A stretch of DNA of 64,000 nt from Shigella phage Sf18. Numbering within the stretch: position 1 is the stretch's first letter; each line of letters starts with the position of its first letter. Below the pieces are notes generated by a model. It did not search any database. It saw nothing but the letters and a program-made list of their open reading frames with translations, and had not been told where the DNA came from. This document shows positions 19,146 through 55,581 of the stretch, piece by piece. The DNA lies in sequence record MF158044; one strand, 5' to 3'. The translations under genes were made by a program, and so were the position numbers.

Positions 19146-21129
19146 ACAGAGAAAACTGAAAGATGCTGGAACATTTGTAGGTCACTGTGCATGTCCACGC
19201 CCTCAATGTTTATCTTCAGATGCAGGTTCTATATATCGTCATGATGACGGTTCATATTCAATGACATGTTTCAGTTGTGGAAAAGGTTTTCCAGAGTGGG
19301 ATTTTGATAAAGGGCAGATTGTGAGTACTCATACTTCAGGTTCAGAGAATAAAAACCGTACATTTCGTGGTATGGATTTGGATGATGTGAAAGAAAACCT
19401 AGAAGCAATGGATTTAAAAGACAGGAAGATTCCTGCAAAAGTCCTTGAGCGCCTTGGTATTAAAGTTGATATTGATGATAACGGTGATATTGATGCACAT
19501 TTCTATCCAACATACAAAAAAGATGAAGATGGTAAGTTGCAACATGTAGGTTATCGTGTTCGTCACAAATATCCAGATGACTATCACAAAGAGCACTTAC
19601 GTGGGAAGTTGAAAGACTTTTCTGGTGGTGTTGGAGATATTAAAGGTGAACTGGCTATGTTCGGTTCATGGATTGCTCCAGAAGGTGGTAACCGTCTTTT
19701 CATCTGGGAAGGTGAGATGGAATGTGCTACAGCAATCTACATGACTTCTTTAGCAATTAAAGATAAGTCTAGACGTAAGAATTACTGCCACGTTTCTGTA
19801 CCATCTGGTGCTAATGTTAAGTCTATCAAAGAGAACTATCAGTATATTACTTCCTTTGATGAAATCTACCTGTGCTTTGATAATGATGAAGCAGGGGCTA
19901 AAGCAACTAAGGAAGCTGCTGGTATCTTACCTATTGAGAAAGTAAGACTGTTCCAGTATCCTGAAGGTATTAAAGACCTTAGTGAGTGGTGGACTAAGTT
20001 CTTCAAAGACAAAGATACAGTCTTAGAAGGATTTAAACAACGAATCTACAATGCACCTCGTTACTGTCCTGCTGGTATCAAGAACTTTGCAGATGGTTTC
20101 GATGCTATGAAGAATCGTGGTCAGATTCCTTTAATTCCTTTCCCAGATTCTTTCGGGGATTTGAATAAGCTGACTTATGGCGGGTATGGTTTAGGTGAGA
20201 TTACAACCCTTGCTGCACCTTCATCTGTAGGTAAATCTGCATATACTCGTGAGATGATTTACAAAGCATGGAAAGATACTGAGTACAACATCGGTGTGAT
20301 TCCTGTAGAGGATACTTACGAAGAACTTATGGAAATGCTCTGTGCAATCCATCTTAGTAAGCAGATTTCAGAGATTCCTTACGATGAGCGTAATTGGGAT
20401 GAGATTAAGGTTGCACATGCTGAGTTATCAAAAGGTCGTCGTATTCACATCGTAGACCACCAAGGGGCAATTGACCAAGATAACCTGCTGGAGTTTGTTG
20501 ACTATCTGGTTAACAGCCTTGATTGTAAGATTATCATTCTTGACCCTATTACATTGGCGCTGTCACGCTCTGATACAGATGAAGAAGAAGTTCTGTCTGA
20601 GTTACTTCGTCGCTGTAAGCGTTATCAGTATGCTCAGGTAAACGTGTGTCACGTTCGTAAGAGTGCAGGTGGTCAAAAGGCCAACTCTGAAGGTGGTGAT
20701 ATTTCTGAAGAAGATATCAAGGGTTCTGGTGCATACTTCCAGATTTCCATGAACAACATTTTGCTTATGCGTAACAAGGTTGACCCAGACCCTGTTAAAA
20801 AGAACTTGACAAAAATCAAGTTAACAAAATGTCGTCGTCATGGTAAATCAACTGGTATTGCTGGTCACACTTGGTATAATCCAGATACAGGTCGTCTTGT
20901 AAAGGCTGCTGGATGTGGTGTTGATATTGATGGTGCAGCAGAGAATATTCGTCAGCAGTTTGGTATTGGTGAGGCTGAAGACCATTACGATGACTCTATG
21001 CCACACTATGAAGATGTTGATTTTGACCGTGAATCTGGAGAGATTTACACACAAGAACAACGTGAAAGTTCCACCATTCCACCTGTGATTAACGAGGATA
21101 ATGATGACTGTCCGTTCGAAACTGATTGA
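19138..21129 (+). CDS. bifunctional DNA primase/helicase (T7 gp4-like)
   Basis: 663 aa; N-terminal Cys4 zinc finger (CACPRPQC...CFSCG), TOPRIM acidic motif (FDNDEAG), DnaB-family Walker A (APSSVGKS). Confidence 0.85.
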   Translation: MAKQRKLKDAGTFVGHCACPRPQCLSSDAGSIYRHDDGSYSMTCFSCGKGFPEWDFDKGQIVSTHTSGSENKNRTFRGMDLDDVKENLEAMDLKDRKIPAKVLERLGIKVDIDDNGDIDAHFYPTYKKDEDGKLQHVGYRVRHKYPDDYHKEHLRGKLKDFSGGVGDIKGELAMFGSWIAPEGGNRLFIWEGEMECATAIYMTSLAIKDKSRRKNYCHVSVPSGANVKSIKENYQYITSFDEIYLCFDNDEAGAKATKEAAGILPIEKVRLFQYPEGIKDLSEWWTKFFKDKDTVLEGFKQRIYNAPRYCPAGIKNFADGFDAMKNRGQIPLIPFPDSFGDLNKLTYGGYGLGEITTLAAPSSVGKSAYTREMIYKAWKDTEYNIGVIPVEDTYEELMEMLCAIHLSKQISEIPYDERNWDEIKVAHAELSKGRRIHIVDHQGAIDQDNLLEFVDYLVNSLDCKIIILDPITLALSRSDTDEEEVLSELLRRCKRYQYAQVNVCHVRKSAGGQKANSEGGDISEEDIKGSGAYFQISMNNILLMRNKVDPDPVKKNLTKIKLTKCRRHGKSTGIAGHTWYNPDTGRLVKAAGCGVDIDGAAENIRQQFGIGEAEDHYDDSMPHYEDVDFDRESGEIYTQEQRESSTIPPVINEDNDDCPFETD

Positions 21130-21382
21130 TAGTTATCTGAAGGAGGGTTTTGAACCCTTCTATTCAGAAGAAAGTAGAAAAAATTTTGTAAAAGAGTGCT
21201 TGACTAAGATAGAGCAGTTCGGTAAAGTACTCATCAACAAGGGACATGAAGTAAAGTTTGAACACTTATCAAAAGATAATGTTGAGCAGTTTGCATTAGC
21301 GATTGATGGTTTATCTACAGTTTACATCTTTACCTTGACTAATAAACATTTTGAATATGAAATATATCGGAGAGATTCATGA
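21101..21382 (+). CDS. hypothetical protein
   Basis: 93-aa ORF overlapping primase-helicase 3' end. Confidence 0.3.
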   Translation: MMTVRSKLIDSYLKEGFEPFYSEESRKNFVKECLTKIEQFGKVLINKGHEVKFEHLSKDNVEQFALAIDGLSTVYIFTLTNKHFEYEIYRRDS

Positions 21383-45528: not shown

Positions 45529-46323
45529 ATGGGTATCGTAAAAATTATTAAAGGTGATATCTTTAAAGACTTTGATGGTAAGAAATTTGATATCATTGGT
45601 CACGGTTGTAACTGCATGAACTTGATGGGTGCAGGTATTGCAGCAACAATTGCTAAACGCTACCCAAAAGCTTATGAAACTGACGCTGAAGTTTATGCTA
45701 CAGTAGGTGGTGAAAATCATAACCCTAAGCATCTAATGCTTGGTAACATCTCTGTAGCACGTTTTAAGCAGGGTCGAATTGCTAACCTTTACACTCAGGT
45801 TATCACTGGCAAAGATGCACGATACAACGCCTTAGAAGCAGCTTTACAGCGTCTTAACAACTACTGTAAAGTTAATCAACTTAAGAAAGTTGGGCTTCCG
45901 ATGATTGGTGCAGGGATTGGTGGTCTTGATAGCATGGCTGTACTGTCCATTATCAACCAGACTATGAAGGATGTTGACGTTTATATGTATGTCTATGAAG
46001 ATAAGATGTACAGTCAGTTGACTAGTCCTGTTACTGGTTGGGAGAACTTCAGTGAGCCTCAATACTTTGATGGTGTTGCTGTGGTAGGCAAGGATAAAGT
46101 TACCCTCAAGGTGAAGCGTAATGGCAAGGTACACACCAGTTACCCTCCGGTTGAGAAGTACAATCGAAGTAACGCTCAAGTTACCCACCCGTTACAAGGT
46201 CACCACCACAGAGCGGTAACGTTTAGCGATGATGCAAGTGTATATATCAATGCGACTACAGAAGAGTTTGCAGAAGATTATATCACACATGAAAACGTAA
46301 ACTATGTTGAAGCACGTAACTAA
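45529..46323 (+). CDS. macro-domain protein (ADP-ribose binding/hydrolase family)
   Basis: Start at Met (MGIVKIIKGDIF); macro signatures GDIF, DIIGHGCNCMNLMGAGIAATI, VGLPMIGAGIGGL; C-terminal 120 aa unassigned. Confidence 0.55.
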   Translation: MGIVKIIKGDIFKDFDGKKFDIIGHGCNCMNLMGAGIAATIAKRYPKAYETDAEVYATVGGENHNPKHLMLGNISVARFKQGRIANLYTQVITGKDARYNALEAALQRLNNYCKVNQLKKVGLPMIGAGIGGLDSMAVLSIINQTMKDVDVYMYVYEDKMYSQLTSPVTGWENFSEPQYFDGVAVVGKDKVTLKVKRNGKVHTSYPPVEKYNRSNAQVTHPLQGHHHRAVTFSDDASVYINATTEEFAEDYITHENVNYVEARN

Positions 46324-46391
46324 TAAGTTACCCAGATAAACATAGACAAGCCCTCCAAAGTTTGAGTTTAAAATCTCAGGTAAGGGGGGCT

Positions 46392-46576
46392 TTTTCATTT
46401 TAAATTTGTGCAGGTATAGTTGCATAGAACTCTGGACAGATTTCTTTAGCTGAACTCCAAAGGGAAAATTCATTTCAAATTTGTGCAGGTTTAGACTCCA
46501 AAGGGATTTTTCATTTTCAATCTGTGCAGATGCAGTTGGACTCCAAAGGGAAAATTCATTTTCAGTTTGTGCAGGT
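46392..46576. repeat. tandem array of four ~42-bp repeats with TTTGTGCAGGT core
   Basis: Units (CTCCAAAGGG)(A/T)TTCATTT(Y)MARTYTGTGCAGRT at about 46392, 46466, 46507, 46552; followed by C-rich tract 46596-46630; related motif upstream of SLT-like gene at 42203-42230. Confidence 0.55.
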
Positions 46577-46749
46577 AGGTAGCTGTAGGAAACCAGCCCC
46601 ACCACCCCCTCTTACTCCCCTTCCTCCCAAAAGTCAAGAGAAAAATTTGTAGAGAACTCAAAAATAATTCTTGACTAGATTCCTGTTTTAGTGTATCCGC
46701 ATACGTGCGTTCTATTCACGAAGCATCGAAAATATTTTTAAAAATTTTG

Positions 46750-46778
46750 TTGACTTCATAAATCCAGTCTTATAGTAT
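46750..46778 (+). promoter_or_regulatory. type-B early promoter (first of array)
   Basis: TTGACT, spacer, TATAGTAT, then ATTTGCATCAACGGGAAACATCCC and conserved leader AACAATCCTAAACTGGAG. Confidence 0.4.
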
Positions 46779-46827
46779 TTGCATCAACGGGAAACATCCC
46801 AACAATCCTAAACTGGAGAATCTAAAA

Positions 46828-47034
46828 ATGTTATATCAACGTGAGTTAATGATTGTTGACAACAACAAAACAAATAAACGTCGTTTCTATATGCTAATTT
46901 GTGATGTTTGGCAACGTATCTCAGAAAAGGATTTTGATGAATATGTTGATACGTCAATCAGGTCTGATTGTTATTTGACAACTCACACAAGGCATTACAC
47001 AAGGCATACAGCCATTTATTACTATAACGTTTAA
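46828..47034 (+). CDS. small hypothetical protein (array gene 1)
   Basis: 68 aa; preceded by conserved leader CCTAAACTGGAGAATCTAAAAATG. Confidence 0.45.
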   Translation: MLYQRELMIVDNNKTNKRRFYMLICDVWQRISEKDFDEYVDTSIRSDCYLTTHTRHYTRHTAIYYYNV

Positions 47035-47045
47035 AAGGCTTGACA

Positions 47046-47204
47046 ATGGTTAAAGAAAACGATGTAATACAATACAAAGATTTAGACGGATACCCAAAAA
47101 TTGGTAAAGTCTTCTATCTCTATAAGTCTGCTATGGGTAATGATTGTATAGCCCTTACAAATGGCGACAAAATAACCATGAAAGATTTTATAAAAATTAA
47201 TTAA
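47046..47204 (+). CDS. small hypothetical protein (below track cut-off)
   Basis: 52-aa ORF found by eye; stop TAA fused to the type-A cassette; weak SD. Confidence 0.25.
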   Translation: MVKENDVIQYKDLDGYPKIGKVFYLYKSAMGNDCIALTNGDKITMKDFIKIN

Positions 47205-47293
47205 ATAAAGTGCTTTACATGGGGTTTAAAAGCTAGTATCTTAAGCCCCCAGATAAAGAGCTTTACCAACAATCCTAAACTGGAGAATCTAAA
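47205..47293 (+). promoter_or_regulatory. type-A cassette copy 1
   Basis: TTTACA-N17-TATCTT promoter-like hexamers embedded in 9-bp hairpin GGGGTTTAA/TTAAGCCCC, then CCCCAGATAAAGAGCTTTACCAACAATCCTAAACTGGAGAATCTAAAATG. Confidence 0.5.
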
Positions 47294-47674
47294 ATGAAAT
47301 ATCGTGCGCCTAAATTTATCAACAAAGAAAACTTTCGTAGTATCTTAGAGGAAACTATGAAAGAAAACTTCAAAGGAAAAATAATTGTTGTTCACGCTTA
47401 CAATTTTAAGTATGATGTTAATGGTAACCGTATTAACCACTACAAAGCTACTATGCTTGACGGTACATTATCCGGTGAAAAAGCTATCATAAATGCTATT
47501 GCAGGACGTGGTAAAACTGTGATACGCTGTGAAAAAAGACGCTATCAAGGCGGTAAATATGGGTATGAAGATGCAATGTACCATCTTGATAAAATGGGGT
47601 ATGATGTAGAGAAAGCTGGAGTATCTCAAACTATTGGTAGTGACGGCTACGTTACAGTTTTCAAAATTAACTAA
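47294..47674 (+). CDS. small hypothetical protein (array gene)
   Basis: 126 aa; conserved cassette leader and SD. Confidence 0.5.
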   Translation: MKYRAPKFINKENFRSILEETMKENFKGKIIVVHAYNFKYDVNGNRINHYKATMLDGTLSGEKAIINAIAGRGKTVIRCEKRRYQGGKYGYEDAMYHLDKMGYDVEKAGVSQTIGSDGYVTVFKIN

Positions 47675-47765
47675 ATAAAGTCCTTTACATGGGGTTTATA
47701 GTTAGATAAGATAAGCCCCAGATAAAGAGCTTTACCAAACAATAACCTAAACTGGAGTATCAAAA
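47675..47765 (+). promoter_or_regulatory. type-A cassette copy 2
   Basis: TTTACA-N17-TAAGAT with hairpin GGGGTTTAT/ATAAGCCCC; leader variant CCTAAACTGGAGTATCAAAAATG. Confidence 0.5.
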
Positions 47766-48023
47766 ATGGCTACTATCAAAAACATCATTGTATCTGCAAA
47801 ATCTCGTGATGACGCTCGCGCAACTGCTAAAAAACTAAATGGTAAAGTGGTTGACAACGGAAAAGAATCTGCTGTAAGATGGGGCGTAAAATGTGATAAG
47901 GAAATTACTTTAAAACGTAGTTCCTATGACCTTTTCAAAGGTGTAAAAGCAATCGGTAGAACTAACGTCTACACGAAGAAAGGTTATAAAATGCACTTAT
48001 CATTAACTGACAATTTAATCTGA
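47766..48023 (+). CDS. small hypothetical protein (array gene)
   Basis: 85 aa, basic; cassette leader. Confidence 0.5.
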   Translation: MATIKNIIVSAKSRDDARATAKKLNGKVVDNGKESAVRWGVKCDKEITLKRSSYDLFKGVKAIGRTNVYTKKGYKMHLSLTDNLI

Positions 48024-48114
48024 TAAAGTGCTTTACATGGGGTTTATAGTTAGATAATATAAGCCCCAGATAAAGAGCTTTACTAACCAATAGTCCTAAA
48101 CTGGAGAATCTAAA
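48024..48114 (+). promoter_or_regulatory. type-A cassette copy 3
   Basis: TTTACA-N17-TAATAT with hairpin; conserved leader. Confidence 0.5.
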
Positions 48115-48627
48115 ATGAATTTTGTTGAAGCTACCTTTGAAGTCCAAAAAGAAAAATTCACTATCATCTATGAAGCTGTTAATATTTGTGAAGCATCCCA
48201 TTGTGTGGAGAATTGGAAGTTTACCGATGAGCACAAAGGCGGGGTTACAATCAAACTTAAAAATCCAGAGCGTAACGGGTACAAATATGCAATTCCACAG
48301 CATTACAGCCTTTCACAATTGATGAGTGATTATGCTAAACAAGGCCGCGAAAATCCATCTATAGAGGCTTACAAGAGCTTACAAGATGAATTACAAAGAG
48401 ATTTAGAGGCTAACAGCTACGTGCTATTTGCAAAGGTAGAAGATAAAGAAGGTAATACAGTATTAAATAGCTTTTCTCTTGCTTATGGCTTCGATTGGTG
48501 CTATCTTGACGGGGAAGATTTAGATTCACGATTAGAAGAGGAAGTGTCGAACTCCGATGGAGAATCTGAAGTAATGGAACGTTTAGAAGCCTTGAAAGAT
48601 TCTGTTATGAATATCTTTAATATCTAA
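48115..48627 (+). CDS. hypothetical acidic protein (array gene)
   Basis: 170 aa; cassette leader; acidic C-terminal third. Confidence 0.5.
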   Translation: MNFVEATFEVQKEKFTIIYEAVNICEASHCVENWKFTDEHKGGVTIKLKNPERNGYKYAIPQHYSLSQLMSDYAKQGRENPSIEAYKSLQDELQRDLEANSYVLFAKVEDKEGNTVLNSFSLAYGFDWCYLDGEDLDSRLEEEVSNSDGESEVMERLEALKDSVMNIFNI

Positions 48628-48711
48628 AAGTGCTTTACATGGGGTTATCAAGTTGATAAGATAGCCCCAGATAAAGAGCTTTACAAACAATCCTAAACTG
48701 GAGAATCTAAA
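48628..48711 (+). promoter_or_regulatory. type-A cassette copy 4
   Basis: Hairpin variant GGGGTTATC/GATAGCCCC (compensatory change keeps pairing); TTTACA-N17-TAAGAT. Confidence 0.5.
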
Positions 48712-49008
48712 ATGTTTATTGCCGCAAACGTTAGAACTAAATTAAGCCAGCTATTAAGTAATATCCAATTCATTGAATCTATGCGCCGTACATCTGAAGC
48801 CGTAGAGTGGTATCATGGAAAGATTAACAAAAAGGAAGTAATAATTTGTGTATGGAACTTTTGTAAAGAATACAAAAAACCATTGCTTCAGGTTGATATC
48901 TATGATAACACTAATAAGTCATCGATTAAGACCACTAGAGATATGGTTGATTCATATGAAATTAGTCACACTGGTAAACTATTCCACAAAGGTAAAAACA
49001 AATGTTAA
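48712..49008 (+). CDS. small hypothetical protein (array gene)
   Basis: 98 aa; cassette leader; stop overlaps next start (ATGTTAA). Confidence 0.5.
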   Translation: MFIAANVRTKLSQLLSNIQFIESMRRTSEAVEWYHGKINKKEVIICVWNFCKEYKKPLLQVDIYDNTNKSSIKTTRDMVDSYEISHTGKLFHKGKNKC

Positions 49009-49349
49009 TCACATACGTTGCAATTTTTATCTCTATTGTGGCGCTCTATAAAGCCTTACAAGCGCACAGTATAGCTAATAAGGCACTTACAAGGGATTTA
49101 AAAATAAACCTTGTACGGGGCTTTCTAGAGCGTTTAAGCTTAGAACAATTGAAACGCTTAGAGATGAGCTTTCGATTCAAAGCAGAAACATACCGGATTG
49201 ATAACATCCTAGACGGGGATTTTAAATTAATCAGTGATTATGACATACTTCTTGAGTCAATTCAAGATATAAACCTGAAAGATTATTATATCGTGATAGC
49301 GCAAGAAATTAATAAAAAAGAGCTTGCAATGCAGAATCAAAACAAGTAA
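49002..49349 (+). CDS. small membrane protein (array gene)
   Basis: 115 aa; N-terminal TM (ITYVAIFISIVALY); last 11 codons (KKELAMQNQNK) lie inside a type-B promoter and are shared with ORF 52598-52738. Confidence 0.45.
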   Translation: MLITYVAIFISIVALYKALQAHSIANKALTRDLKINLVRGFLERLSLEQLKRLEMSFRFKAETYRIDNILDGDFKLISDYDILLESIQDINLKDYYIVIAQEINKKELAMQNQNK

Positions 49350-49352
49350 AGT
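49324..49352 (+). promoter_or_regulatory. type-B promoter overlapping gene 3' end
   Basis: TTGCAA-N17-TAAAGT; the TAA of the -10 hexamer is the stop codon of ORF 49002-49349. Confidence 0.45.
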
Positions 49353-49629
49353 ATTCATCAACGGTACTAATGACGGTCGAACTTTGAACGTAACTTTAAA
49401 ACACTATATAGACGGTGTATTAAACTTTGAAGAGTTAAGAGCAGAACAGCACCTATTAGATTGGCAAGTAGCAGGTTTACAAAAAACCGCCACAGGATAT
49501 GGAAAGAAAATTCCTACATCTTGGAAAGTTCGATACCTTGGAAAGTTACGCAGAATTTATCAAGATGTTTACAGTAATAGCGGCGTAAGTTACATTATTG
49601 TTAGTGGTAAAAAATTGTATTTAGTCTAA
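49324..49629 (+). pseudogene. ORF without canonical start or leader (possible 5'-truncated gene)
   Basis: 101-aa frame open only from TTG at 49324; no in-frame ATG and no CTAAACTGGAG leader; begins inside the type-B promoter; ends at a normal type-A cassette. Confidence 0.25.
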
Positions 49630-49718
49630 TAAATTGCTTTACATGGGGTTATCAAGTTGCTAAGATAGCCCCAGATAAAGAGATTTATCTAAAACTAACC
49701 TAAACTGGAGACTAGAAA
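49630..49718 (+). promoter_or_regulatory. type-A cassette copy 5
   Basis: Hairpin variant GGGGTTATC/GATAGCCCC; leader variant ACCTAAACTGGAGACTAGAAAATG. Confidence 0.5.
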
Positions 49719-50126
49719 ATGACTAATGTTAATCACAAAGAAGTTGCAATTTTGAAAGCACGTTTGACCATTAACCGCATCAACATTGTAACATCAGCAG
49801 CACCAGACGAAACACTACATAATATCATCGGTAAAATTCAGGGCGCAGTAGTAGACACAAAACAGCTTAAAGAATCCTTGCAAGATGTAGCAGCAGGAGC
49901 TATAATTGACGGTGCTCAATATGAGATGAAGGAAATGCTGTCAAAGTCAAAAGTAATGAATAAAGAACTTGACTTGAAAATGTTTAGATTTGCTGTTAAA
50001 GTGTGGCTATGTGTTGATTTTGATGCAAACTTTGCAATTGCTGATTTCTTTGCAACATGGTTACAGCGTAACTTACCGGTTGAAGTTTTCCGTGAAATCT
50101 GCGATGCAATTTATTCAGAAATTTGA
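49719..50126 (+). CDS. hypothetical protein (array gene)
   Basis: 135 aa; cassette leader. Confidence 0.5.
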   Translation: MTNVNHKEVAILKARLTINRINIVTSAAPDETLHNIIGKIQGAVVDTKQLKESLQDVAAGAIIDGAQYEMKEMLSKSKVMNKELDLKMFRFAVKVWLCVDFDANFAIADFFATWLQRNLPVEVFREICDAIYSEI

Positions 50127-50155
50127 TTGACACTGCAAAAGCATAGTAGTAAAGT
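50127..50155 (+). promoter_or_regulatory. type-B early promoter
   Basis: TTGACA-N17-TAAAGT starting on the base after the upstream stop codon; followed by conserved leader. Confidence 0.5.
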
Positions 50156-50198
50156 ACTCATCAGACAACGAAACAACCCTAAACTGGAGATTCAAAAG

Positions 50199-50447
50199 AT
50201 GAAAACAAAAACACAACTCAAAAGTATGATGAAAAATGGTTTTCTCGATGATGTATACAAAGAATGTAGACGGTATGGGGAAATAAAAAGTAATTTCGAT
50301 TTTGAGTACACGTATACAGTGAATTTCAAAACTAACGAACGAAAAACAGACCTTGTAACTGAGATTCAAATAGAATACAAAGATTTATTATGGACTTTTG
50401 AACTTGTAAAAGGTTTATGCACATCGGCAGGTTATAAAAACATCTAA
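50199..50447 (+). CDS. small hypothetical protein (array gene)
   Basis: Start at internal Met (MKTKTQLK) after CTGGAGATTCAAAAG; the track N-terminal extension would translate the promoter. Confidence 0.45.
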   Translation: MKTKTQLKSMMKNGFLDDVYKECRRYGEIKSNFDFEYTYTVNFKTNERKTDLVTEIQIEYKDLLWTFELVKGLCTSAGYKNI

Positions 50448-50532
50448 AAGTGCTTTACATGGGGTTTATAGTTAGATAAGATAAGCCCCAGATAAAGAGC
50501 TTTACCAACAATCCTAAACTGGAGAATCTAAA
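50448..50532 (+). promoter_or_regulatory. type-A cassette copy 6
   Basis: Consensus copy: TAAAAGTGCTTTACATGGGGTTTATAGTTAGATAAGATAAGCCCCAGATAAAGAGCTTTACCAACAATCCTAAACTGGAGAATCTAAAATG. Confidence 0.5.
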
Positions 50533-51090
50533 ATGAAATGCTTTCATGGTACTACACAAGAAAACTTTGTAAACCTTATCAATGGCGGTGATAAACCATC
50601 AGGAGCTTGGAATTGCTCTGATATGGATGGATGTTTTTACGTCTACCCTGTTAACAAGTTCTATGATGTAGAGAATCTGGATGACGAACAAATCACAGAT
50701 GAAGGTATTAGAAACGCGCTTGATAGCGCAAGCATTACAGCAGCCTATCAAATGAAGTCACAAAAGCTTGTTATCTTGGAACTGGATATTCCAGAAGATG
50801 ATTTACAAGATGACTGGAGCTGTGAGAACATGAGCGACGTAGCAAGCTTTACAGAATATTTCGATAAAGAATGGATTAAAAAGGTTTACACAACTGAATT
50901 TAATGCTATGTATGCGCCTTTCTTTGTCCCTAACCTAAACAATAGAAATTTAGGATATGTACCAGACGAACTACGCAACATTGCAGAAATAGTCCAACGT
51001 AGTGATGGGATGAGCAATGTATATTGTGATATCTTTGACACCATGCAATGCAACGTAACAGAAACGGTTATAAACGACTTAACAGCATAA
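50533..51090 (+). CDS. hypothetical protein with ADP-ribosyltransferase-like N-terminal motif (tentative)
   Basis: 185 aa; N-terminal CFHGTTQENFVNLI resembles the HG[ST]...N..I signature of H-Y-E class ART folds (PARP/Tpt1-like), followed by Tyr cluster FYVYPVNKFY; cassette leader. Confidence 0.3.
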   Translation: MKCFHGTTQENFVNLINGGDKPSGAWNCSDMDGCFYVYPVNKFYDVENLDDEQITDEGIRNALDSASITAAYQMKSQKLVILELDIPEDDLQDDWSCENMSDVASFTEYFDKEWIKKVYTTEFNAMYAPFFVPNLNNRNLGYVPDELRNIAEIVQRSDGMSNVYCDIFDTMQCNVTETVINDLTA

Positions 51091-51153
51091 ACCATAGAAT
51101 CACACCAGTTCACTAGAAAAGCCCCGCACAGGGGCTTACAAGAGGCTTAAAAC

Positions 51154-51384
51154 ATGCTTACTACAATCTATCTTATTCTATCTATCTGCAATGGTTCACA
51201 GTGTGACTTTAAAGGTTTAGAAGAGTTTACAGGTAGCGAAAATAATGCTATTGTTGCCTGTCAGATAGCAAGGCAAGACTACCCAACATCGGATGATATC
51301 CAATGTTACTATAAGTCAGAAGATGATGAAGGTATTTACTTTGATAGTGTGAATGGTGAATATGAGATTCTTATAGAAAAGTAG
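51154..51384 (+). CDS. small hypothetical protein (array gene)
   Basis: 76 aa; SD CAAGAGG; preceded by GCCCC-GCACA-GGGGC hairpin. Confidence 0.4.
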   Translation: MLTTIYLILSICNGSQCDFKGLEEFTGSENNAIVACQIARQDYPTSDDIQCYYKSEDDEGIYFDSVNGEYEILIEK

Positions 51385-51413
51385 TTGACACTGAAAACGC
51401 AAGAAAGTAAAGT
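51385..51413 (+). promoter_or_regulatory. type-B early promoter
   Basis: TTGACA-N17-TAAAGT immediately after upstream stop; then ATTCATCAACGGGAAACATCCC and leader. Confidence 0.5.
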
Positions 51414-51462
51414 ATTCATCAACGGGAAACATCCCAACAATCCTAAACTGGAGATTCAAAAA

Positions 51463-51684
51463 ATGTTGCAAGTTCTTAACGTAAAAACCATTGATTTTAA
51501 ATTCTCAAATGTTCGTCGTACCTATTTACAGCCGTTTAGTAAACCTGTTAGGATTCCCAACGATGACGCTAAAAAGTTGATTGATGAAATTCTAGCTAAT
51601 GGCGGTTATCTGGCTAGTCATAAGCAGTATAATGATGAGGATGGAAGCCTGATAAATGAGTTTACATATTATTACTACAAATAA
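51463..51684 (+). CDS. small hypothetical protein (array gene)
   Basis: Start at internal Met (MLQVLNVK) after CTGGAGATTCAAAAA. Confidence 0.45.
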   Translation: MLQVLNVKTIDFKFSNVRRTYLQPFSKPVRIPNDDAKKLIDEILANGGYLASHKQYNDEDGSLINEFTYYYYK

Positions 51685-51775
51685 CTAATAAAGTGCTTTA
51701 CATGGGGTTTATAGTTAGCTAAGATAAGCCCCAGATAAAGAGCTTTACCAACAATCCTAAACTGGAGAATCTAGA
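51685..51775 (+). promoter_or_regulatory. type-A cassette copy 7
   Basis: TTTACA-N17-TAAGAT with hairpin; leader CTGGAGAATCTAGAATG. Confidence 0.5.
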
Positions 51776-51973
51776 ATGTTATCACTGATGCAAAAACTTT
51801 CTACCTTGTGGTGTTTAAAAGGTGTAGAGTGTAACCTTAACATGGAAGGTTCAAAGATAGACCTAAAAATAGTATACAATGGAGAAATACTATTCTCACA
51901 GAATAGCAGTCATCCACACTTCAAAGATAATGCAATTATGGCCGTGAATAATCTGATGGATAGAATTTATTAA
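51776..51973 (+). CDS. small hypothetical protein (array gene)
   Basis: 65 aa; cassette leader. Confidence 0.45.
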   Translation: MLSLMQKLSTLWCLKGVECNLNMEGSKIDLKIVYNGEILFSQNSSHPHFKDNAIMAVNNLMDRIY

Positions 51974-52058
51974 AGTGCTTTACATGGGGTTTAAAAGCTA
52001 GTATCTTAAGCCCCAGAGAAAGAGCTTTACCAACAATCCTAAACTGGAGAATCTGAAA
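51974..52058 (+). promoter_or_regulatory. type-A cassette copy 8
   Basis: Hairpin variant GGGGTTTAA/TTAAGCCCC; -10-like TATCTT. Confidence 0.5.
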
Positions 52059-52400
52059 ATGGCCTATGTAACAATTATCACCGATAAAGAAAATTCGTCA
52101 TGGTCTACCCAAGTTAACGACAAAATGAAACCTATGCAGTGTCTCAAGTACTTTGAGCAATGGAACAGGGGAGAAGATGTAAGCCCCTTTCAAGTGATGC
52201 AGATTGTACATGTTGACAATGAAGGGAATAAAACTACCCTTAACACTGAATACTATGCTACACGTTTCGAAACTCGCAAATCAGCTATGCAGGAGTTAAG
52301 AGAAAAGGGATATAGTCACATTGCCGCGCTCATTTGGTCTGATTTGCTTAAAAAACAGTCATTAACCTATGTTAAGCCAGAAAAAATCTTTATAAGCTAA
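52059..52400 (+). CDS. hypothetical protein (array gene)
   Basis: 113 aa; cassette leader. Confidence 0.5.
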   Translation: MAYVTIITDKENSSWSTQVNDKMKPMQCLKYFEQWNRGEDVSPFQVMQIVHVDNEGNKTTLNTEYYATRFETRKSAMQELREKGYSHIAALIWSDLLKKQSLTYVKPEKIFIS

Positions 52401-52597
52401 TCAACAACTTATAAAAAATCTTTTGAAAAACTATTGACAATGCCCCTTGACAAGTGTAACTTTGTTCGAGGGGGTTTATCTAAAAGGGGTTAACTTAATA
52501 GATTCTTTATAGATAAGCGTAAAAAGTACTTGCAAAGGTCTAATCATATCTATATAGTATCTTCAAAAGGCAACTTCCTAAACTGGAGAATCACTAA
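52401..52597 (+). promoter_or_regulatory. intergenic control region with stacked promoter-like boxes
   Basis: TTGACAATGCCCCTTGACAAG (two -35-like boxes) and TTGCAA-spacer-TATATAGTA, then leader CCTAAACTGGAGAATCACTAAATG. Confidence 0.35.
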
Positions 52598-52738
52598 ATG
52601 TTAGATATCATTAAAAACCCTATCCTTTGCGGTATGATTGTTTCTGTTGTGTTGCCATTAGCAATGCTCATCATTGGTGAAATCTCAGATAAACTTTTTG
52701 ATAAAAAACTACTTGCAATGCAGAATCAAAACAAGTAA
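52598..52738 (+). CDS. small membrane protein (below track cut-off)
   Basis: 46-aa ORF found by eye; TM core (ILCGMIVSVVLPLAMLIIG); conserved leader; C-terminal KKLLAMQNQNK encoded by the type-B promoter sequence. Confidence 0.4.
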   Translation: MLDIIKNPILCGMIVSVVLPLAMLIIGEISDKLFDKKLLAMQNQNK

Positions 52739-52741
52739 AGT
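52713..52741 (+). promoter_or_regulatory. type-B promoter overlapping gene 3' end
   Basis: TTGCAA-N17-TAAAGT; identical over about 45 nt to 49324-49362; followed by hairpin GGGGAGG-GAGA-CCTCCCC and leader. Confidence 0.45.
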
Positions 52742-52802
52742 ATTCATCAACGGGGAGGGAGACCTCCCCACTAAACAAAATTCCTAAACTGGAGAATCTA
52801 GA

Positions 52803-53330
52803 ATGAATAAGTTTAATGCTGTTAATGCAATCCGTAGCCGTGAAGTGATGAGCAAGCCTTGTAAAGATACTTGGGAATTTACCTTAAAGAGCAAAGTTTT
52901 TGCAGTTATCACAAAAGGGGAAGATAAGCAGTTTTATGTACACCGACCAAATGTAAAAGCGGTAACAGCCAACAACTTTATGGGGGCTATTTCTCTTATT
53001 CTGAATGATTATATGGCTATAGTCGCAGAAATTCACGAAATGGCTATTAAGGCAACTAAAAACGAGTTAAACCGCTTTAAAATGGCTTATGAGCGCTCTA
53101 TTAAGTCCCATAATCTTTTTATTGCAATCCACTATACAGGCATGTATGCTATGGGAACGGGTAACCAACAATACCCACTCTATGAAGTGGAAAACATCTT
53201 TACAAGTGACTACCCAACAACTAATTTTAAAATTACGTTAGGGGAAGCATTAAATAGGGGAATTAGGCTTTACGAACAATCTTTAAAAAACTTAGAAAAT
53301 TCCCTTGACGAAATCATCACAAATCTATAA
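52803..53330 (+). CDS. hypothetical protein (array gene)
   Basis: 175 aa; cassette leader. Confidence 0.5.
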   Translation: MNKFNAVNAIRSREVMSKPCKDTWEFTLKSKVFAVITKGEDKQFYVHRPNVKAVTANNFMGAISLILNDYMAIVAEIHEMAIKATKNELNRFKMAYERSIKSHNLFIAIHYTGMYAMGTGNQQYPLYEVENIFTSDYPTTNFKITLGEALNRGIRLYEQSLKNLENSLDEIITNL

Positions 53331-53333
53331 AGT
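53305..53333 (+). promoter_or_regulatory. type-B early promoter
   Basis: TTGACG-N17-TAAAGT, with TAA as the upstream gene's stop; then CTTATCAACGGGGAGGGAATGACCTTCCCC hairpin and leader. Confidence 0.45.
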
Positions 53334-53390
53334 ACTTATCAACGGGGAGGGAATGACCTTCCCCAACAATCCTAAACTGGAGACTAGAAA

Positions 53391-53654
53391 ATGAATAATC
53401 AAGAAATCACTATCCTGTTACAAATCGGTACTGACAAAGAAGATATCCAACTTTGCAAACGTATTGAAAGTGATTGGTTCAACGGTGAAATCATCGCAGA
53501 ATCTTATGAAGTAGTCGGATTCATGAATGGTGAAATTGTAAGCCATTTCGGTTTAACTAAATCTGAAGCCGTTGCAAAGTATGACGTTTTATCTTGTGAG
53601 ATTCTTACAAAATACAATGAAAAAAGACTTGCAACTTATGCAGCAATGAATTAA
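53391..53654 (+). CDS. small hypothetical protein (array gene)
   Basis: 87 aa; leader CCTAAACTGGAGACTAGAAAATG. Confidence 0.5.
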   Translation: MNNQEITILLQIGTDKEDIQLCKRIESDWFNGEIIAESYEVVGFMNGEIVSHFGLTKSEAVAKYDVLSCEILTKYNEKRLATYAAMN

Positions 53655-53657
53655 TAT
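53629..53657 (+). promoter_or_regulatory. type-B early promoter
   Basis: TTGCAA-N17-TAATAT, with TAA as the upstream stop; then TTTCAACGGGGAGGGAGACTTCCCC hairpin and leader. Confidence 0.45.
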
Positions 53658-53719
53658 TACTTTCAACGGGGAGGGAGACTTCCCCACTAACCTAAATTCC
53701 TAAACTGGAGAATCTGAAA

Positions 53720-53971
53720 ATGGCTACTATCCACGCAACTGTTAACAATTTTGGCTTCCATGTATTAGATGTTAAATTTGATATGGTTGGAACTGGCGAT
53801 GTTTTTGGCATGGTTGATATGTGTCTAAAAGCAACTATTCAGGACTACAATCAATCTGAGTGGTTCTGGAAAGAAGTAAAACAAGAAGTCTTAAAGGATG
53901 GCAAATCCTCTTACTATTGGGGTGATTCTCTTATCACGCTTTACTATGAAGTTGACGGCTTCAATAACTAA
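53720..53971 (+). CDS. small hypothetical protein (last array gene)
   Basis: 83 aa; cassette leader. Confidence 0.5.
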   Translation: MATIHATVNNFGFHVLDVKFDMVGTGDVFGMVDMCLKATIQDYNQSEWFWKEVKQEVLKDGKSSYYWGDSLITLYYEVDGFNN

Positions 53972-54012
53972 CAAGTCGCCGCAACGGGGCAAATAGCCCC
54001 AGACACCTTTAC

Positions 54013-54035
54013 AGCCCCTTAGATGGGGCTTTTTT
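54013..54035 (+). terminator. intrinsic terminator closing the rightward unit
   Basis: AGCCCC-TTAGAT-GGGGCT hairpin followed by TTTTT; a second hairpin CGGGGC-AAATA-GCCCC sits just upstream. Confidence 0.55.
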
Positions 54036-55581
54036 ACGTCTTCCTAGAATCTTACCATTGATTCGATAGAATCTATCCCATACATTTAGAATAATAACTC
54101 TATAGCTTACTCTATATCCTCTTATCAAATCAACTTAAATATAAGCCCATAACCCGAAAGGGAAGGGCAATCCCTAAAACGCTCTATAACGCTCTATACG
54201 GGCTTATCATCTCATCTTAAGCAATCATATTAACCTGCTCTTAAAAGCCCTTTATAGAGCTTTCTAGAGCCTTAAAAGAATCTTATAAGGGTATAAGCTT
54301 TATTATCTCGTTAGTATCTTGTGAATGGTTAAACAGGGGCTTGATAATAGCTTTAAAGTATGTTATGGAGTCTTCAAAGTAACGTAAAAGAACCTTAAAA
54401 GTAACGTAAAAGTTAGCCCCCTTTACATTCTCTTAACAAAATCTTAACAAATGCTACATAGTTATGCTTGTTAGCCCCTTGTTAAATCCTTGTTAGAGGT
54501 ATGTTAAGAGCTTGTTAGCCTCTTTGAAGTCCCTGTATAAGCCCCTAGAAAGCCCTATAAAGAGCTATACAGGTAGTTGGGGTGTAGTTACTAGGGAGAA
54601 CCTTAGAAGAGGCTATATAGAGCTATACAGAGCTTTTAAGAGGGCTTTATAGAGAATCACTAAGAAGGGAAGGGAACTATAGACCAAGAGATAGTGACCA
54701 TGTTAATAGCTTGTTAAAAAGGTTTAGAACTTGTTAGCACCTTGTTAATTATCTTAACAAAATAACTCTTAAGATTTAACTATTTAGCAACTTATAAGCA
54801 ACTTGTTAGACCCTTGTTAGTAGTGTTACAGACTGGTTAAGCTCTTGTTAGTTCTGTTAAGAGGCTGTTAAGAACTTTGAAGAGATGTTAAGAGCTTGAG
54901 AGAGTTGTTAAGAGATTGTTAATGATATTTTAAGATTTTGCAAAGGGGATGTTACAGGGCTGTTTAGGGCTACCAAGCAGATATACACCCTAAGTAGATA
55001 TTTTTCAGATTCTCCAAAGACCCTAAAAAGTAACCTACCTAGTCTATTTTATAAAAATTTTATAATTCTGAATAACTATCTATACACTATCTTATATAAA
55101 ACAGGAATTAACAGGCTTATAAGATACCTTGTTAGTACCGTGTTAGACCTTGTAGGATAAGCCTAAGAGGTTGATTCTTAAGAACAACCGAATCAACTAG
55201 AAGGGAATACCTGTTTAGTGTTATATAACAGTCTATATAGAGGCTTAGTAATACCTAGTGATTCTGCTATATAGGGTACTATCGTTTACCTAGAGATTAA
55301 GATGGCTATAGGGGCTTCTAAGGGGCTAGGAAGAGGTTAGGAAGGTGATTGTATAGGGTTGATTAATGGTAGGCTTAGAAGGCTTTATAGAGGGCTATAT
55401 AGAGAGCACTATTTAGGGACTAAGAGGTTATATAGATACTATATAATACTATATAGAGATGATGCTTAGAGAGGGTGTTTAGAAGGGTATAGATATTTTA
55501 TCACATATCATGGTGACCCAAGATGAACGGAGTGAATCCCAAATTTTATAAAAATTATAAATTTCGTAAATTTTACTCAAT
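54036..55581. repeat. ORF-free repeat-dense region (candidate origin, packaging or terminus region)
   Basis: No ORF of 60 aa or more on either strand across about 1.6 kb; dense short degenerate repeats (CTTGTTAG, GTTAAGAG, TATAGAGC, TTAGAAGG, AGTAACGTAAAAG x2) and AT-rich palindromes ATTTTATAAAAAT. Confidence 0.6.

What the first reader, a model, noticed from the sequence alone, without database searches (positions are those of the whole stretch)
46750..53657. Second cassette family (type B): promoters whose -10 hexamer contains the upstream gene's stop codon
Seven sites have TTGAC(A/T/G) or TTGCAA, an exact 17-nt spacer in six, and TAAAGT/TAATAT/TAGTAT (46750, 49324, 50127, 51385, 52713, 53305, 53629). 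In six the TAA of the hexamer is the stop codon of the preceding ORF. Each is followed by (A/C)TTCATCAACGG, a short hairpin (GGGAAACATCCC or GGGGAGGGAGACCTCCCC) and the same CTAAACTGGAG leader as type A. Genes are therefore delimited by promoters at the nucleotide level, and the supplied track's longest-ORF starts at 50127 and 51385 would translate the promoter.
Basis: seen in the sequence. Interest (0 to 1): 0.55.

Follow-up and report, generated by a model that had tools for sequence, protein, structure and literature searches.

The report
Felix O1-type early promoter–hairpin cassettes
These seven repeats are host-type (sigma-70) early promoters of a Felix O1-like phage, each followed by a short hairpin and a standard ribosome-binding leader; they pack tightly against the upstream genes and mark the points where small genes are swapped between related phages, which makes them a useful but fairly ordinary relative of the cassettes already described in T4-like phages.

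Summary
The window is a Felix O1-like myovirus (Ounavirinae, closest to Shigella phages Sf13/Sf15). All seven sites are exactly where stated and are far above chance: 8 pattern hits against 0.41 expected, all on the + strand.

Three details of the observation are wrong:
- All seven spacers are 17 nt, not six.
- The TAA of the -10 hexamer is the upstream stop codon in four sites, not six. Two ORFs stop immediately 5' of the -35, and one site has no upstream ORF.
- Only five sites carry the full CATCAACGG + hairpin + leader set.

Across eight relatives in three genera, the hexamers and the 17-nt spacing are kept at the orthologous junctions while spacers and flanks diverge. The stop/-10 overlap is kept at the same junctions. 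A hairpin of varying sequence always starts 10 nt after the -10. That is about 3 nt into the predicted mRNA, which suits a 5'-end stabiliser.

Synteny breakpoints between phages fall on these cassettes.

Best reading: sigma-70 early promoter/stem-loop/SD cassettes, the Ounavirinae counterpart of T4-type PeSLs. The stop overlap is a by-product of ORFs running into a pre-existing promoter. No transcript start has been mapped. Interest is modest.

The parts
46750..46778 (+). Type-B promoter core 1: -35 TTGACT, 17 nt, -10 TAGTAT. First promoter of the early cluster, with no upstream ORF.
   Evidence: orthologues in all 8 relatives
46789..46800 (+). Predicted 5'-proximal hairpin GGGAAACATCCC, starting 10 nt after the -10.
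46808..46830 (+). Leader CTAAACTGGAG (SD GGAG) and ATG 46828.
49324..49352 (+). Promoter core 2: TTGCAA-17-TAAAGT. TAA 49347-49349 is the stop of ORF 49002..49349. The hairpin, leader, SD and ATG of the downstream gene have been removed by a 51-nt deletion at 49364/49365.
50127..50155 (+). Promoter core 3: TTGACA-17-TAAAGT. The upstream ORF stops with TGA 50124-50126, abutting the -35. No hairpin. Leader 50179-50189, true ATG 50199.
51385..51413 (+). Promoter core 4: TTGACA-17-TAAAGT. The upstream ORF stops with TAG 51382-51384, abutting the -35.
51424..51435 (+). Hairpin GGGAAACATCCC. Leader 51443-51453, true ATG 51463.
52530..52558 (+). Related promoter TTGCAA-17-TATAGT with leader 52578-52588 and ATG 52598, but without the ATCAACGG motif or hairpin. 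Conserved in relatives.
52713..52741 (+). Promoter core 5: TTGCAA-17-TAAAGT. TAA 52736-52738 is the stop of the 46-aa ORF 52598..52738.
52752..52769 (+). Hairpin GGGGAGG-GAGA-CCTCCCC (-16 kcal/mol). Leader 52784-52794, ATG 52803.
53305..53333 (+). Promoter core 6: TTGACG-17-TAAAGT. TAA 53328-53330 is the stop of the 175-aa ORF.
53344..53364 (+). Hairpin GGGGAGGGAATGACCTTCCCC (-15 kcal/mol). Leader 53372-53382, ATG 53391.
53629..53657 (+). Promoter core 7: TTGCAA-17-TAATAT. TAA 53652-53654 is the stop of the 87-aa ORF.
53668..53685 (+). Hairpin GGGGAGGGAGACTTCCCC (-13 kcal/mol). Leader 53700-53710, ATG 53720.
54013..54030 (+). Intrinsic-terminator-like hairpin AGCCCCTTAGATGGGGCT followed by TTTTTT, closing the early cluster.
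   Evidence: annotated as a terminator at the homologous place in Mordin, Michonne and Moogle

Best explanation
The seven sites are host-RNA-polymerase (sigma-70) promoters of the early 'ORFan' cluster (46750-54040, + strand) of a Felix O1-like myovirus. Each belongs to a composite cassette with five parts:
1. An A-tract about 5-9 nt upstream of the -35 (UP-element-like).
2. A -35 hexamer, an exact 17-nt spacer and a TAnnnT -10 hexamer.
3. The conserved initial region (A/T)TCAACGG. Transcription is predicted to start at its C/A, 7-9 nt after the -10.
4. A G/C-clamped hairpin of variable sequence that always begins 10 nt after the -10. That is about 3 nt from the predicted mRNA 5' end, where it would hinder RppH and 5'-end-dependent RNase E attack and stabilise the early mRNA.
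5. The common leader CCTAAACTGGAG (SD) and the ATG.

Upstream ORFs run into the cassette and use whatever stop it offers. That is the TAA of the -10 in one frame, or the TGA/TAG of a TTGACA/TAGACA -35 in a second frame. In the third frame the ORF carries its own stop, flush against the -35.

Because the cassettes are about 60-100 bp of near-identical sequence repeated between most genes, they also serve as homologous-recombination linkers. Single early genes are deleted, replaced or moved through them, as in T4-type PeSLs.

Shown: the anatomy, the conservation, the fixed hairpin position and the breakpoints. Inferred: sigma-70 use, the transcript start, the stabiliser role and the recombination mechanism.
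For: Occurrence:
- The motif gives 8 hits against 0.41 expected, all on the + strand.
- There are 64 sites in the window plus 8 relatives, all on the + strand within the gene clusters scanned, all with a 17-nt spacer.

Conservation at 7 orthologous junction groups:
- Variable columns: -35 12%, -10 21%, spacer 66%, upstream 20 nt 61%.
- TTG and TA...T positions vary in 1 of 42 columns.
- Information content peaks at the A-tract, TTG, TA..T and ATCAACGG.

Hairpin:
- It starts at nt 4 of the predicted RNA in 24 of 27 distinct leaders.
- There are more than 20 different hairpin sequences, with A-U, G-C, C-G and U-G alternatives at stem levels 4-5.
- Mean z-score is -4.45 against shuffles.
- The distance from hairpin to SD is not fixed (two leader variants in the window, others in relatives; leaders listed), whereas the distance from -10 to hairpin is fixed.

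Stop codon positions: 28 in the -10, 12 abutting the -35, 4 inside the -35, 5 just upstream.

The same promoter is non-coding in Felix O1 and HY02 but forms the C-terminal tail of two unrelated ORFs here.

Synteny breakpoints fall on cassettes:
- The 82-aa gene 50199-50447 is bounded by the cassettes. It is unrelated to Sf13's gene in the same slot, but 65% identical to wV8 gene 23, which sits in a different slot.

Literature and annotation:
- In Felix O1, RT-PCR scored ORF21 and ORF22 as maximally expressed at 5 min (PMC3185647). In the record, type-B sites lie just upstream of both.
- No phage RNA polymerase or sigma was found in Felix O1.
- One homologous site is annotated as a sigma-70 promoter in AYO145A.
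- 5' secondary structure stabilises E. coli mRNAs because RppH and RNase E need single-stranded 5' ends (PMC3997798).
- The PeSL description matches: stop codon, AT-rich region, sigma-70 promoter, GGGG..CCCC stem-loop in one of five positions including just downstream of the -10, then SD and ATG (PMC2839356).
Against: - No transcription start has been mapped in any Felix O1-like phage. The searches found none.
- The -10 TAAAGT matches the consensus at only 4 of 6 positions.
- In Felix O1, ORF19 and ORF23, which also have type-B sites just upstream, peaked at 25 min rather than 5 min.
- The same hexamer (TAAAGT/TAAATT) also heads the type-A cassettes, where no -35 lies upstream of it. Part of its conservation may therefore have another cause.
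- Site detection required TAnnnT and at least 4 of 6 matches in the -35, so the conservation figures are partly ascertained.
- With 3 unpaired 5' nucleotides, RppH may still act, so the stabiliser role is uncertain.
- Two window sites (49324, 50127) lack the hairpin.
- The invariant ATCAAC is more conserved than start-site selection alone would require.
Confidence: 0.75

Rival explanations
1. The promoters are real, but the hairpin does not stabilise the 5' end. Instead it works on read-through transcripts from upstream promoters. It could act as an attenuator or pause site, as a 3'-end protector of the upstream message after processing, or as an insulator that keeps each translation-initiation region independent of what lies upstream. 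This is the role proposed for PeSL stem-loops.
For: - PeSL stem-loops were proposed to be terminators or attenuators.
- Nearly every gene has its own promoter, so read-through is expected to be heavy.
- The type-A hairpin spans the spacer and -10, so it can only exist in read-through RNA.
Against: - No U-tract follows any type-B hairpin (the downstream sequence is ACTAAAC or AACAATCC), so it is not a canonical intrinsic terminator.
- Its position is fixed relative to the -10, not relative to the upstream stop or the downstream SD. This points to a function tied to the start site.
Confidence: 0.25
2. The cassettes are read by host polymerase under the control of a phage factor. The invariant ATCAACGG at the start site, or the invariant CCTAAACTGGAG leader, would be an operator or a cleavage site. 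A phage protein would use it to shut off or process all early messages together, as T4 RegB does when it cuts GGAG in early Shine-Dalgarno sequences.
For: - ATCAACGG and the leader are more conserved than a start site or an SD needs.
- The leader is shared by type-A and type-B cassettes.
- The RegB precedent comes from my own knowledge of T4 biology. The T4 post-transcription review appeared in the search list but I did not read it.
Against: - No candidate regulator or nuclease was identified.
- The Felix O1 paper reports no polymerase-modifying proteins.
- All the downstream genes are ORFans, so nothing can be assigned.
- The conservation could simply reflect recent spread of the cassettes by recombination.
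Confidence: 0.1
3. The repeats are inert intergenic direct repeats, spread by duplication and recombination. They only resemble promoters because the DNA is AT-rich.
For: - The wV8 and Felix O1 annotations list them only as direct repeats DR_1-DR_9.
- The simple promoter scan finds 56 promoter-like sites in this region against 38.7 in shuffles, so consensus matches are cheap.
Against: - The footprint pattern: hexamers and spacing are held while spacers diverge.
- All sites are on the + strand.
- Every site lies 45-60 nt upstream of an SD and ATG.
- The hairpin shows compensatory variation.
- Felix O1 genes with these sites just upstream are expressed early.
Confidence: 0.04
4. The overlap of the stop codon with the -10 hexamer is itself selected, for example as a coupling between termination of translation and downstream initiation. 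It would not be a by-product of compaction.
For: The overlap is conserved at three junction types across three genera: 28 of the 49 sites that have an upstream ORF.
Against: - The same promoters occur with the stop abutting or inside the -35, a few nt upstream of it, or with no ORF at all.
- The identical promoter is non-coding in Felix O1 and HY02.
- The overlapping peptide tails vary freely (…EIITNL, …EIIRTL, …QLIESL, …ETIKNL) while the hexamers stay.
- Frame arithmetic alone explains the three observed arrangements.
Confidence: 0.04

Closest known systems
PeSL (promoter-early stem-loop) cassettes of T4-type phages (Arbiol et al. 2010, PMC2839356; Comeau et al. 2014, PMC4122927)
   Same: - Composite intergenic module: upstream stop codon, AT-rich tract, sigma-70-like -35/-10, GGGG...CCCC stem-loop, SD and ATG.
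- Many near-identical copies, concentrated in a cluster of small early ORFans.
- One PeSL subclass has the stem-loop just downstream of the -10 (like type B) and another has it between or over the boxes (like type A).
- Indel and replacement breakpoints between close relatives coincide with the cassettes.
   Different: - The host lineage is Ounavirinae, not T4-like.
- The sequences are unrelated.
- The type-B hairpin has a strictly fixed offset from the -10 and no terminator features.
- The promoter is often embedded in the 3' end of the upstream ORF, not merely downstream of its stop.
- A single invariant leader (CCTAAACTGGAG) is shared by both cassette types.
- Mini-circle formation and promoter activity have not been tested here.
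Bacteriophage T4 early promoters (sigma-70, strong, with upstream A-tracts; review PMC2988021 seen but not read)
   Same: - Host-polymerase promoters with near-consensus -35, 17-bp spacing and upstream A-rich sequence.
- They drive many small early genes of unknown function.
   Different: - This comparison rests on my own knowledge of T4.
- T4 early promoters have a better -10 (TATAAT-like) and are not followed by a fixed hairpin and a uniform leader.
5'-terminal stabilising stem-loops of E. coli mRNAs (ompA, papA; Emory, Bouvet and Belasco 1992, as cited in PMC3997798)
   Same: A short stable hairpin within a few nucleotides of the 5' end. Such structures protect against RppH and against 5'-end-dependent RNase E.
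   Different: Here the 5' end is only predicted. There would be about 3 unpaired nucleotides, which may be borderline. No half-life data exist.
Direct repeats DR_1-DR_9 of phage wV8 and the 39-bp and 57-bp repeats of Felix O1 (GenBank EU877232; PMC3185647)
   Same: They are the same elements. The Felix O1 39-bp repeat TTGACACTGGTTTTTAGATAGATTAAATTACACATCAAC is a type-B core.
   Different: They were recorded only as repeats. Some hairpins were annotated as minus-strand terminators. No promoter, hairpin or shuffling interpretation was given.

Membership tests
sigma-70 (host RNA polymerase) promoter | -35 hexamer close to TTGACA | tested here: met
   TTGACA x2, TTGACT, TTGACG, TTGCAA x3. TTG is invariant in all but one of the 64 sites (TAGACA in HY02).
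sigma-70 (host RNA polymerase) promoter | 17 +/- 1 bp spacer | tested here: met
sigma-70 (host RNA polymerase) promoter | -10 hexamer TAnnnT (A at position 2, T at position 6) | tested here: met
   TAAAGT, TAATAT and TAGTAT here; TAAATT, TACTAT, TATAGT and TAGAGT in relatives. The match to TATAAT is only 4-5 of 6.
sigma-70 (host RNA polymerase) promoter | Phylogenetic footprint: hexamers and spacing conserved while spacer and flanks diverge | tested here: met
   Variable columns: 12% (-35) and 21% (-10) against 66% (spacer) and 61% (upstream). Partly ascertained by the search pattern.
sigma-70 (host RNA polymerase) promoter | Primary transcript 5' end 6-10 nt downstream of the -10; activity with E-sigma70 or in uninfected host | not testable with these tools
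   No TSS data were found. Indirect support only: early RT-PCR signal for Felix O1 ORF21 and ORF22.
PeSL-type mobile regulatory cassette | Composite of upstream stop, AT-rich tract, sigma-70-like promoter, stem-loop, SD and ATG | tested here: met
   compared with the description in PMC2839356
PeSL-type mobile regulatory cassette | Many copies concentrated in a variable cluster of ORFans | tested here: met
   16 promoters (8 type A, 7 type B, 1 TATAGT) for 19 small genes in 46750-54040. The ten ORFs scanned (of the 19) all fall in PHROG families of unknown function.
PeSL-type mobile regulatory cassette | Indel and replacement breakpoints between related genomes coincide with the cassettes | tested here: met
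   Breakpoints at 47035/47206, 49364/5, 50163-50201/50447, 51462/51776/51968 and 52591/52769. One gene is replaced in place and also found in another slot in wV8.
PeSL-type mobile regulatory cassette | Excision as mini-circles during infection; promoter and terminator activity in reporter assays | not testable with these tools
   Needs inverse PCR and lacZ fusions as in PMC2839356.
PeSL-type mobile regulatory cassette | Found in T4-type myoviruses (the family as originally delimited) | tested here: not met
   The window is Ounavirinae (Mooglevirus-like). It is therefore an analogue in another lineage, not a member by descent.
5'-terminal stabiliser hairpin | Stable stem-loop within a few unpaired nucleotides of the mRNA 5' end | tested here: inconclusive
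   The hairpin starts 10 nt after the -10 in 24 of 27 distinct leaders, which means 2-4 unpaired nt if +1 lies 7-9 nt after the -10. The 5' end itself is only predicted.
Intrinsic (Rho-independent) terminator | G+C-rich hairpin followed by a U-tract | tested here: not met
   Type-B hairpins are followed by ACTAAAC or AACAATCC. None is listed by the terminator scan, which does find the true terminator at 54013.
Any curated RNA family (Rfam 15) | Covariance-model match | tested here: not met
   Only a chance-level miRNA hit (E = 0.38) in 46000-56000.

The most novel reading that the evidence does not exclude
Type-A and type-B elements together would form an Ounavirinae-wide 'plug-and-play' early-gene cassette system, evolved independently of the T4 PeSLs. 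Each module would supply:
- built-in stop codons for whatever ORF lands upstream (TGA in the -35, TAA in the -10);
- a host promoter;
- a start-site-proximal stabilising hairpin;
- a uniform translation leader.

The modules would act as the homologous linkers through which anti-host and anti-defence ORFans are exchanged among phages. The invariant ATCAACGG and CCTAAACTGGAG would be handles for a still unknown phage regulator or nuclease that switches the whole early class off together.
Probability: 0.3. Interest if true: 0.55.

Novelty: new member of a known kind. Interest (0 to 1): 0.35.

Why it matters
- Annotation: several public records start genes at the TTG of the -35 (Sf13 gp45) or call the hairpins minus-strand terminators (wV8). 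Recognising the cassette fixes the starts and explains the short shared C-terminal tails.
- Phage engineering: Felix O1-like phages are used for Salmonella, E. coli and Shigella typing and biocontrol. The cassettes are ready-made compact expression units and natural safe sites for inserting or deleting genes.
- Evolution: PeSL-like modular shuffling would not be peculiar to T4-like phages. It would be a convergent solution for the fast turnover of early host-takeover genes.

None of this overturns current understanding.

Tried and rejected
1. MAFFT plus RNAalifold on 27 leaders. The hairpins differ in length and were misaligned, so no consensus stem was returned. I replaced this with per-sequence folding anchored on the -10.
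2. IMG/VR scan for the motif. Multi-copy loci are all on 81-90 kb Felix-like contigs. The single hits I inspected (15 loci, including a recurrent one in ~146 kb phages) are ordinary promoter-like or coding matches without the hairpin/leader architecture. The cassette looks lineage-restricted among the loci examined.
3. The search for related loci with the 175-aa protein returned only six close relatives, so there is no deeper sampling.
4. Literature:
   - No TSS or transcriptome study of a Felix O1-like phage was found.
   - The wV8 paper does not mention promoters or repeats.
   - No paper links PeSLs to Felix O1-like phages.
5. Rfam: nothing.
6. Pfam and PHROGs on the neighbouring genes: all of unknown function.
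7. I considered that the type-A cassette's leading TAAAGT is a second -10. I rejected this because no -35 lies 16-18 nt upstream of it; scores are at chance level.
8. I considered the hairpins as intrinsic terminators on either strand. I rejected this because there is no T-run.

Full report
**Identity of the window.** The region matches 247 phage records, nearly all Felix O1-like myoviruses (Ounavirinae). It is 97-99% identical to Shigella phages Sf13, Sf15 and Sf14 and to E. coli phage 3HA14, and 75-90% identical to Mooglevirus, Suspvirus and Felixounavirus members. The finding lies in a + strand cluster of 19 small genes (46828-53971). This cluster follows the macro-domain gene and ends at a terminator at 54013-54030.

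**Check of the observation.**
- All seven hexamer pairs are at the stated coordinates.
- A pattern that captures the shared features (TTG, 20 nt, TANNNT, 4 nt, WTCAR) has 8 hits in the 64-kb window, all on the + strand. Shuffles give 0.41 expected, and none of 100 shuffles reaches 8.
- Three details are wrong:
  1. All seven spacers are 17 nt, not six.
  2. The TAA of the -10 is the stop of the preceding ORF at four sites (49324, 52713, 53305, 53629). At 50127 and 51385 the stop (TGA, TAG) lies immediately 5' of the -35. Site 46750 has no upstream ORF.
  3. The complete downstream set (xATCAACGG, hairpin, CTAAACTGGAG leader) exists at five sites. Site 50127 has a variant initial region and no hairpin. 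Site 49324 has neither hairpin nor leader.
The real starts are ATG 50199 and ATG 51463, behind the GGAG. These give 82- and 73-aa products, the same lengths as annotated homologues. Sf13 gp45 is in fact annotated from that TTG.
- Two related sites were missed: TTGCAA-17-TATAGT at 52530, and a core-only copy at 21200 inside an ORF.

**Comparative evidence.** I fetched the homologous clusters of Mordin, Michonne, Moogle, Silverhawkium, Sf13 (all Mooglevirus), SUSP1 (Suspvirus), HY02 and Felix O1 (Felixounavirus).
- A both-strand scan finds 64 sites, all on the + strand and all with a 17-nt spacer. Every orthologous junction that exists in a genome has one.
- In seven orthologous groups, the fraction of variable columns is 12% in the -35 and 21% in the -10. 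It is 66% in the spacer and 61% in the 20 nt upstream.
- The TTG and TA...T positions vary in 1 of 42 columns.
- The scan pattern enforces part of this, but no orthologous junction was lost to the filter.
- Information content also peaks at an A-tract 5-9 nt upstream of the -35 and at ATCAACGG after the -10.
- This is the footprint expected of working sigma-70 promoters with a proximal UP-like element.

**External support.**
- The Felix O1 paper reports no phage RNA polymerase or sigma.
- Its RT-PCR table puts ORF21 and ORF22 in the 5-min class, but ORF19 and ORF23 in the 25-min class. In the record, type-B sites lie just upstream of all four.
- The AYO145A record annotates one homologous site as a sigma-70 promoter.
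- No transcript start has been mapped in this phage group in the searchable literature.

**The stop-codon overlap.**
- Among the 49 sites with an upstream ORF, the stop is the first three bases of the -10 in 28. It abuts the -35 in 12, lies inside the -35 in 4 (TGA of TTGACA, TAG of TAGACA), and lies 7-70 nt upstream of the -35 in 5, four of them within 13 nt.
- Frame arithmetic explains this. With a 17-nt spacer, the TGA of TTGACA and the TAA of TAAAGT sit in two different frames. An ORF entering in the third frame needs its own stop, and that stop is found flush against the -35.
- The same promoter (TTGCAA...ATCAAAACAAGTAAAGT/TAAATT) is non-coding in Felix O1 and HY02. In the window it encodes the tail LAMQNQNK* of two otherwise unrelated proteins, the 115-aa ORF 49002..49349 and the 46-aa ORF 52598..52738.
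- The homologue of the 115-aa protein is 110 aa in Felix O1 and HY02, where a TTGACA -35 supplies the TGA. The PHROG profile is also 110 positions long.
- Peptide tails over the promoters vary freely while the hexamers do not.
It is best read as ORFs extending into a pre-existing promoter in a compact genome, not as a delimiting device.

**The hairpin.**
- I folded the first 30-34 nt after the predicted start for every distinct leader. A hairpin begins at nucleotide 4, which is 10 nt after the -10, in 24 of 27.
- There are more than 20 different hairpin sequences. Stems are 4-8 bp and loops mostly 4-9 nt. Examples are GGGA-AACA-TCCC, GGGGC-AAGATAAA-GCCCC, GGGGAGG-GAGA-CCTCCCC and GGGGAGGG-AATGA-CCTTCCCC.
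- Stem levels 4 and 5 show A-U, G-C, C-G and U-G alternatives. Mean z-score against shuffles is -4.45, and 26 of 27 are below -2. The tool's dinucleotide-shuffle z-scores for three window leaders are -2.0 to -3.6.
- The distance from hairpin to SD is not fixed: the window has two leader variants (AACAATC and ACTAAACAAAATTC) and relatives have others (leaders listed). The position is thus fixed relative to the promoter, not the ribosome site.
- From general knowledge of E. coli start-site choice, the start lies 7-9 nt after the -10, with a pyrimidine at -1 and a purine at +1. That makes the A of C-A-ACGG the likely start and leaves about 3 unpaired 5' nucleotides.
- RppH and RNase E both need single-stranded 5' ends, which is why 5' structures stabilise mRNAs (PMC3997798). 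I therefore propose a 5' stabiliser. This step is inferred.
- No hairpin is followed by a T-run, so these are not intrinsic terminators. Rfam has no match.

**Cassettes as recombination boundaries.** BLAST of 46300-54200 against each relative shows collinear blocks whose ends fall on cassettes:
- 47035/47206: one gene is absent in Mordin and Michonne.
- 50163/50447: one gene is replaced relative to every relative. The left breakpoint is just after TAAAGTACTCATCA and the right one is at the first base of the next type-A cassette.
- 51462/51776/51968: genes are present or absent.
- 52591/52769: the 46-aa gene and its promoter are missing in SUSP1 and Moogle, with both ends in the leader.
- The replaced gene (50199-50447) has no similarity to Sf13's gene in the same slot. 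It is 65% identical to wV8 gene 23, which sits three genes further downstream behind another type-B promoter.
- Felix O1 lacks the 87-aa gene between two type-B cassettes.
- Michonne and Mordin contain chimeric or tandem type-A cassettes.

**Comparison with what is known.**
- The closest described system is the PeSL of T4-type phages. A PeSL is a module that runs from the upstream stop codon through an AT-rich tract, a sigma-70-like promoter and a GGGG...CCCC stem-loop to the SD and ATG. The stem-loop lies in one of five positions, including just downstream of the -10.
- PeSLs are concentrated in ORFan-rich plastic regions and mediate insertion, deletion and replacement by homologous recombination (PMC2839356, PMC4122927).
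- Type B matches the 'stem-loop downstream of the -10' subclass, and type A the 'between or over the boxes' subclass.
- Differences: the phage lineage is Ounavirinae, the sequences are unrelated, the hairpin offset is strictly fixed, promoters are frequently embedded in the upstream ORF, and one leader is shared by all cassettes.
- The elements themselves are not new as sequences. Felix O1's 39-bp repeat is a type-B core and its 57-bp repeat is type A. wV8's record lists them as DR_1-DR_9, and some hairpins are annotated as minus-strand terminators.
- Counts of predicted sigma-70 promoters have been published for UAB_Phi87, AYO145A and ASO1A/B.
- I found no paper that interprets them as promoter-hairpin cassettes or links them to PeSLs.

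**Verdict.** The promoter interpretation is well supported by comparison but not by experiment. The stop overlap is a conserved by-product of compaction. The more informative features are the fixed-offset hairpin and the shuffling boundaries. This is a new member (an analogue in another phage subfamily) of a known kind of element. It is useful for annotation and engineering and moderately interesting for phage genome evolution.

Noticed in passing
window 49364/49365: A 51-nt deletion relative to Sf13 removes the hairpin, leader, SD, ATG and first three codons of the 90-aa gene homologous to Sf13 gp50. The remaining ORF (to 49629) has no in-frame ATG. The fourteen best-matching of 50,697 phage records all align in two pieces spanning about 50 extra nt across the junction, so they keep the missing segment. 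The deletion is either private to this phage or an assembly or propagation artefact.
   Followed up: yes
window 47213, 47683, 48031, 48633, 49637, 50453, 51696, 51978 and relatives: Type-A cassettes (CTTTACATGGGG...) are also headed by TAAAGT, TAAATT or AAAAGT, one base before the -35 (52 of 56 copies). This hexamer often supplies the upstream stop, yet no -35 lies 16-18 nt upstream of it. The hexamer is thus shared by both cassette types for a reason other than -10 function. It could reflect common ancestry, a stop signal or UP-element-like A-richness.
   Followed up: partly
window 46373-46576: Directly after the terminator-like sequence homologous to Felix O1 t13 there are about 3-5 tandem copies of a 43-45-nt unit (ACTCCAAAGGGAAAATTCATTTTCAATTTGTGCAGGT...). 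They lie just upstream of the first early promoter. Function unknown; they could be iterons or regulator sites.
   Followed up: partly
window 54040-55600: About 1.5 kb between the early cluster and the convergent minus-strand genes holds no convincing gene (only short ORFs of 95 aa or less). It contains at least 7 degenerate copies of a ~30-nt repeat (CCCTAGAAAGCCCTATAAAGAGCTATACAG-like). The same gene-free gap exists in Mordin, Michonne, Moogle and SUSP1.
   Followed up: no
window 9534-9740 and 10920-11156: Four 90-100-nt repeats sit in two intergenic gaps between minus-strand genes. They have a striking ACC-rich periodic composition (GGT-rich on the minus strand). Two copies end in a hairpin (CATCACTTAAAAACCC...TCTTAAGTGATG).
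   Followed up: no
window 21200-21237: A core-only copy of the type-B promoter (TTGACT-17-TAAAGT ACTCATCAAC) lies inside ORF 21101..21382, with no hairpin or leader. It is about 140 nt upstream of the ATG at 21379-21381 (cggagagattcATGaaacat). It may be an internal promoter or a chance match.
   Followed up: partly
window 52443-52473, then 52530-52558: A conserved hairpin (CCCCTTGACAAG...TTCGAGGGG) is followed by TTTAT and overlaps two TTGACA motifs. Next comes the TTGCAA-17-TATAGT promoter. Together they look like a terminator/restart point inside the early cluster. AYO145A annotates a promoter in the corresponding intergenic region, after the 113-aa gene homologue.
   Followed up: partly
L008 (Sf13) 5986-6285; L010 (wV8) 4778-4822 and 6297-6317: There are public annotation errors caused by not recognising the cassette. 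Sf13 gp45 starts at the TTG of the -35. wV8 has minus-strand 'Rho-independent terminators' drawn over the cassette regions (one over a type-A cassette, one over DR_6).
   Followed up: yes
L003 (Michonne) 2173-2270; L001 (Mordin) 700-800: Chimeric cassettes are present. In Michonne a leader runs straight into a second type-A element (aatctaaaATGCTTTACATGGGG) beside a duplicated 85-aa gene. In Mordin two type-A elements are fused in tandem. These look like footprints of recombination between cassettes.
   Followed up: partly
window leaders, e.g. 51441-51452, 52782-52793: In every fold, the UCC just upstream of UAAACU pairs with the GGA of the Shine-Dalgarno GGAG, giving a 3-bp helix with a 6-nt loop. 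It is weak and possibly meaningless, but it belongs to the invariant leader shared by types A and B.
   Followed up: no
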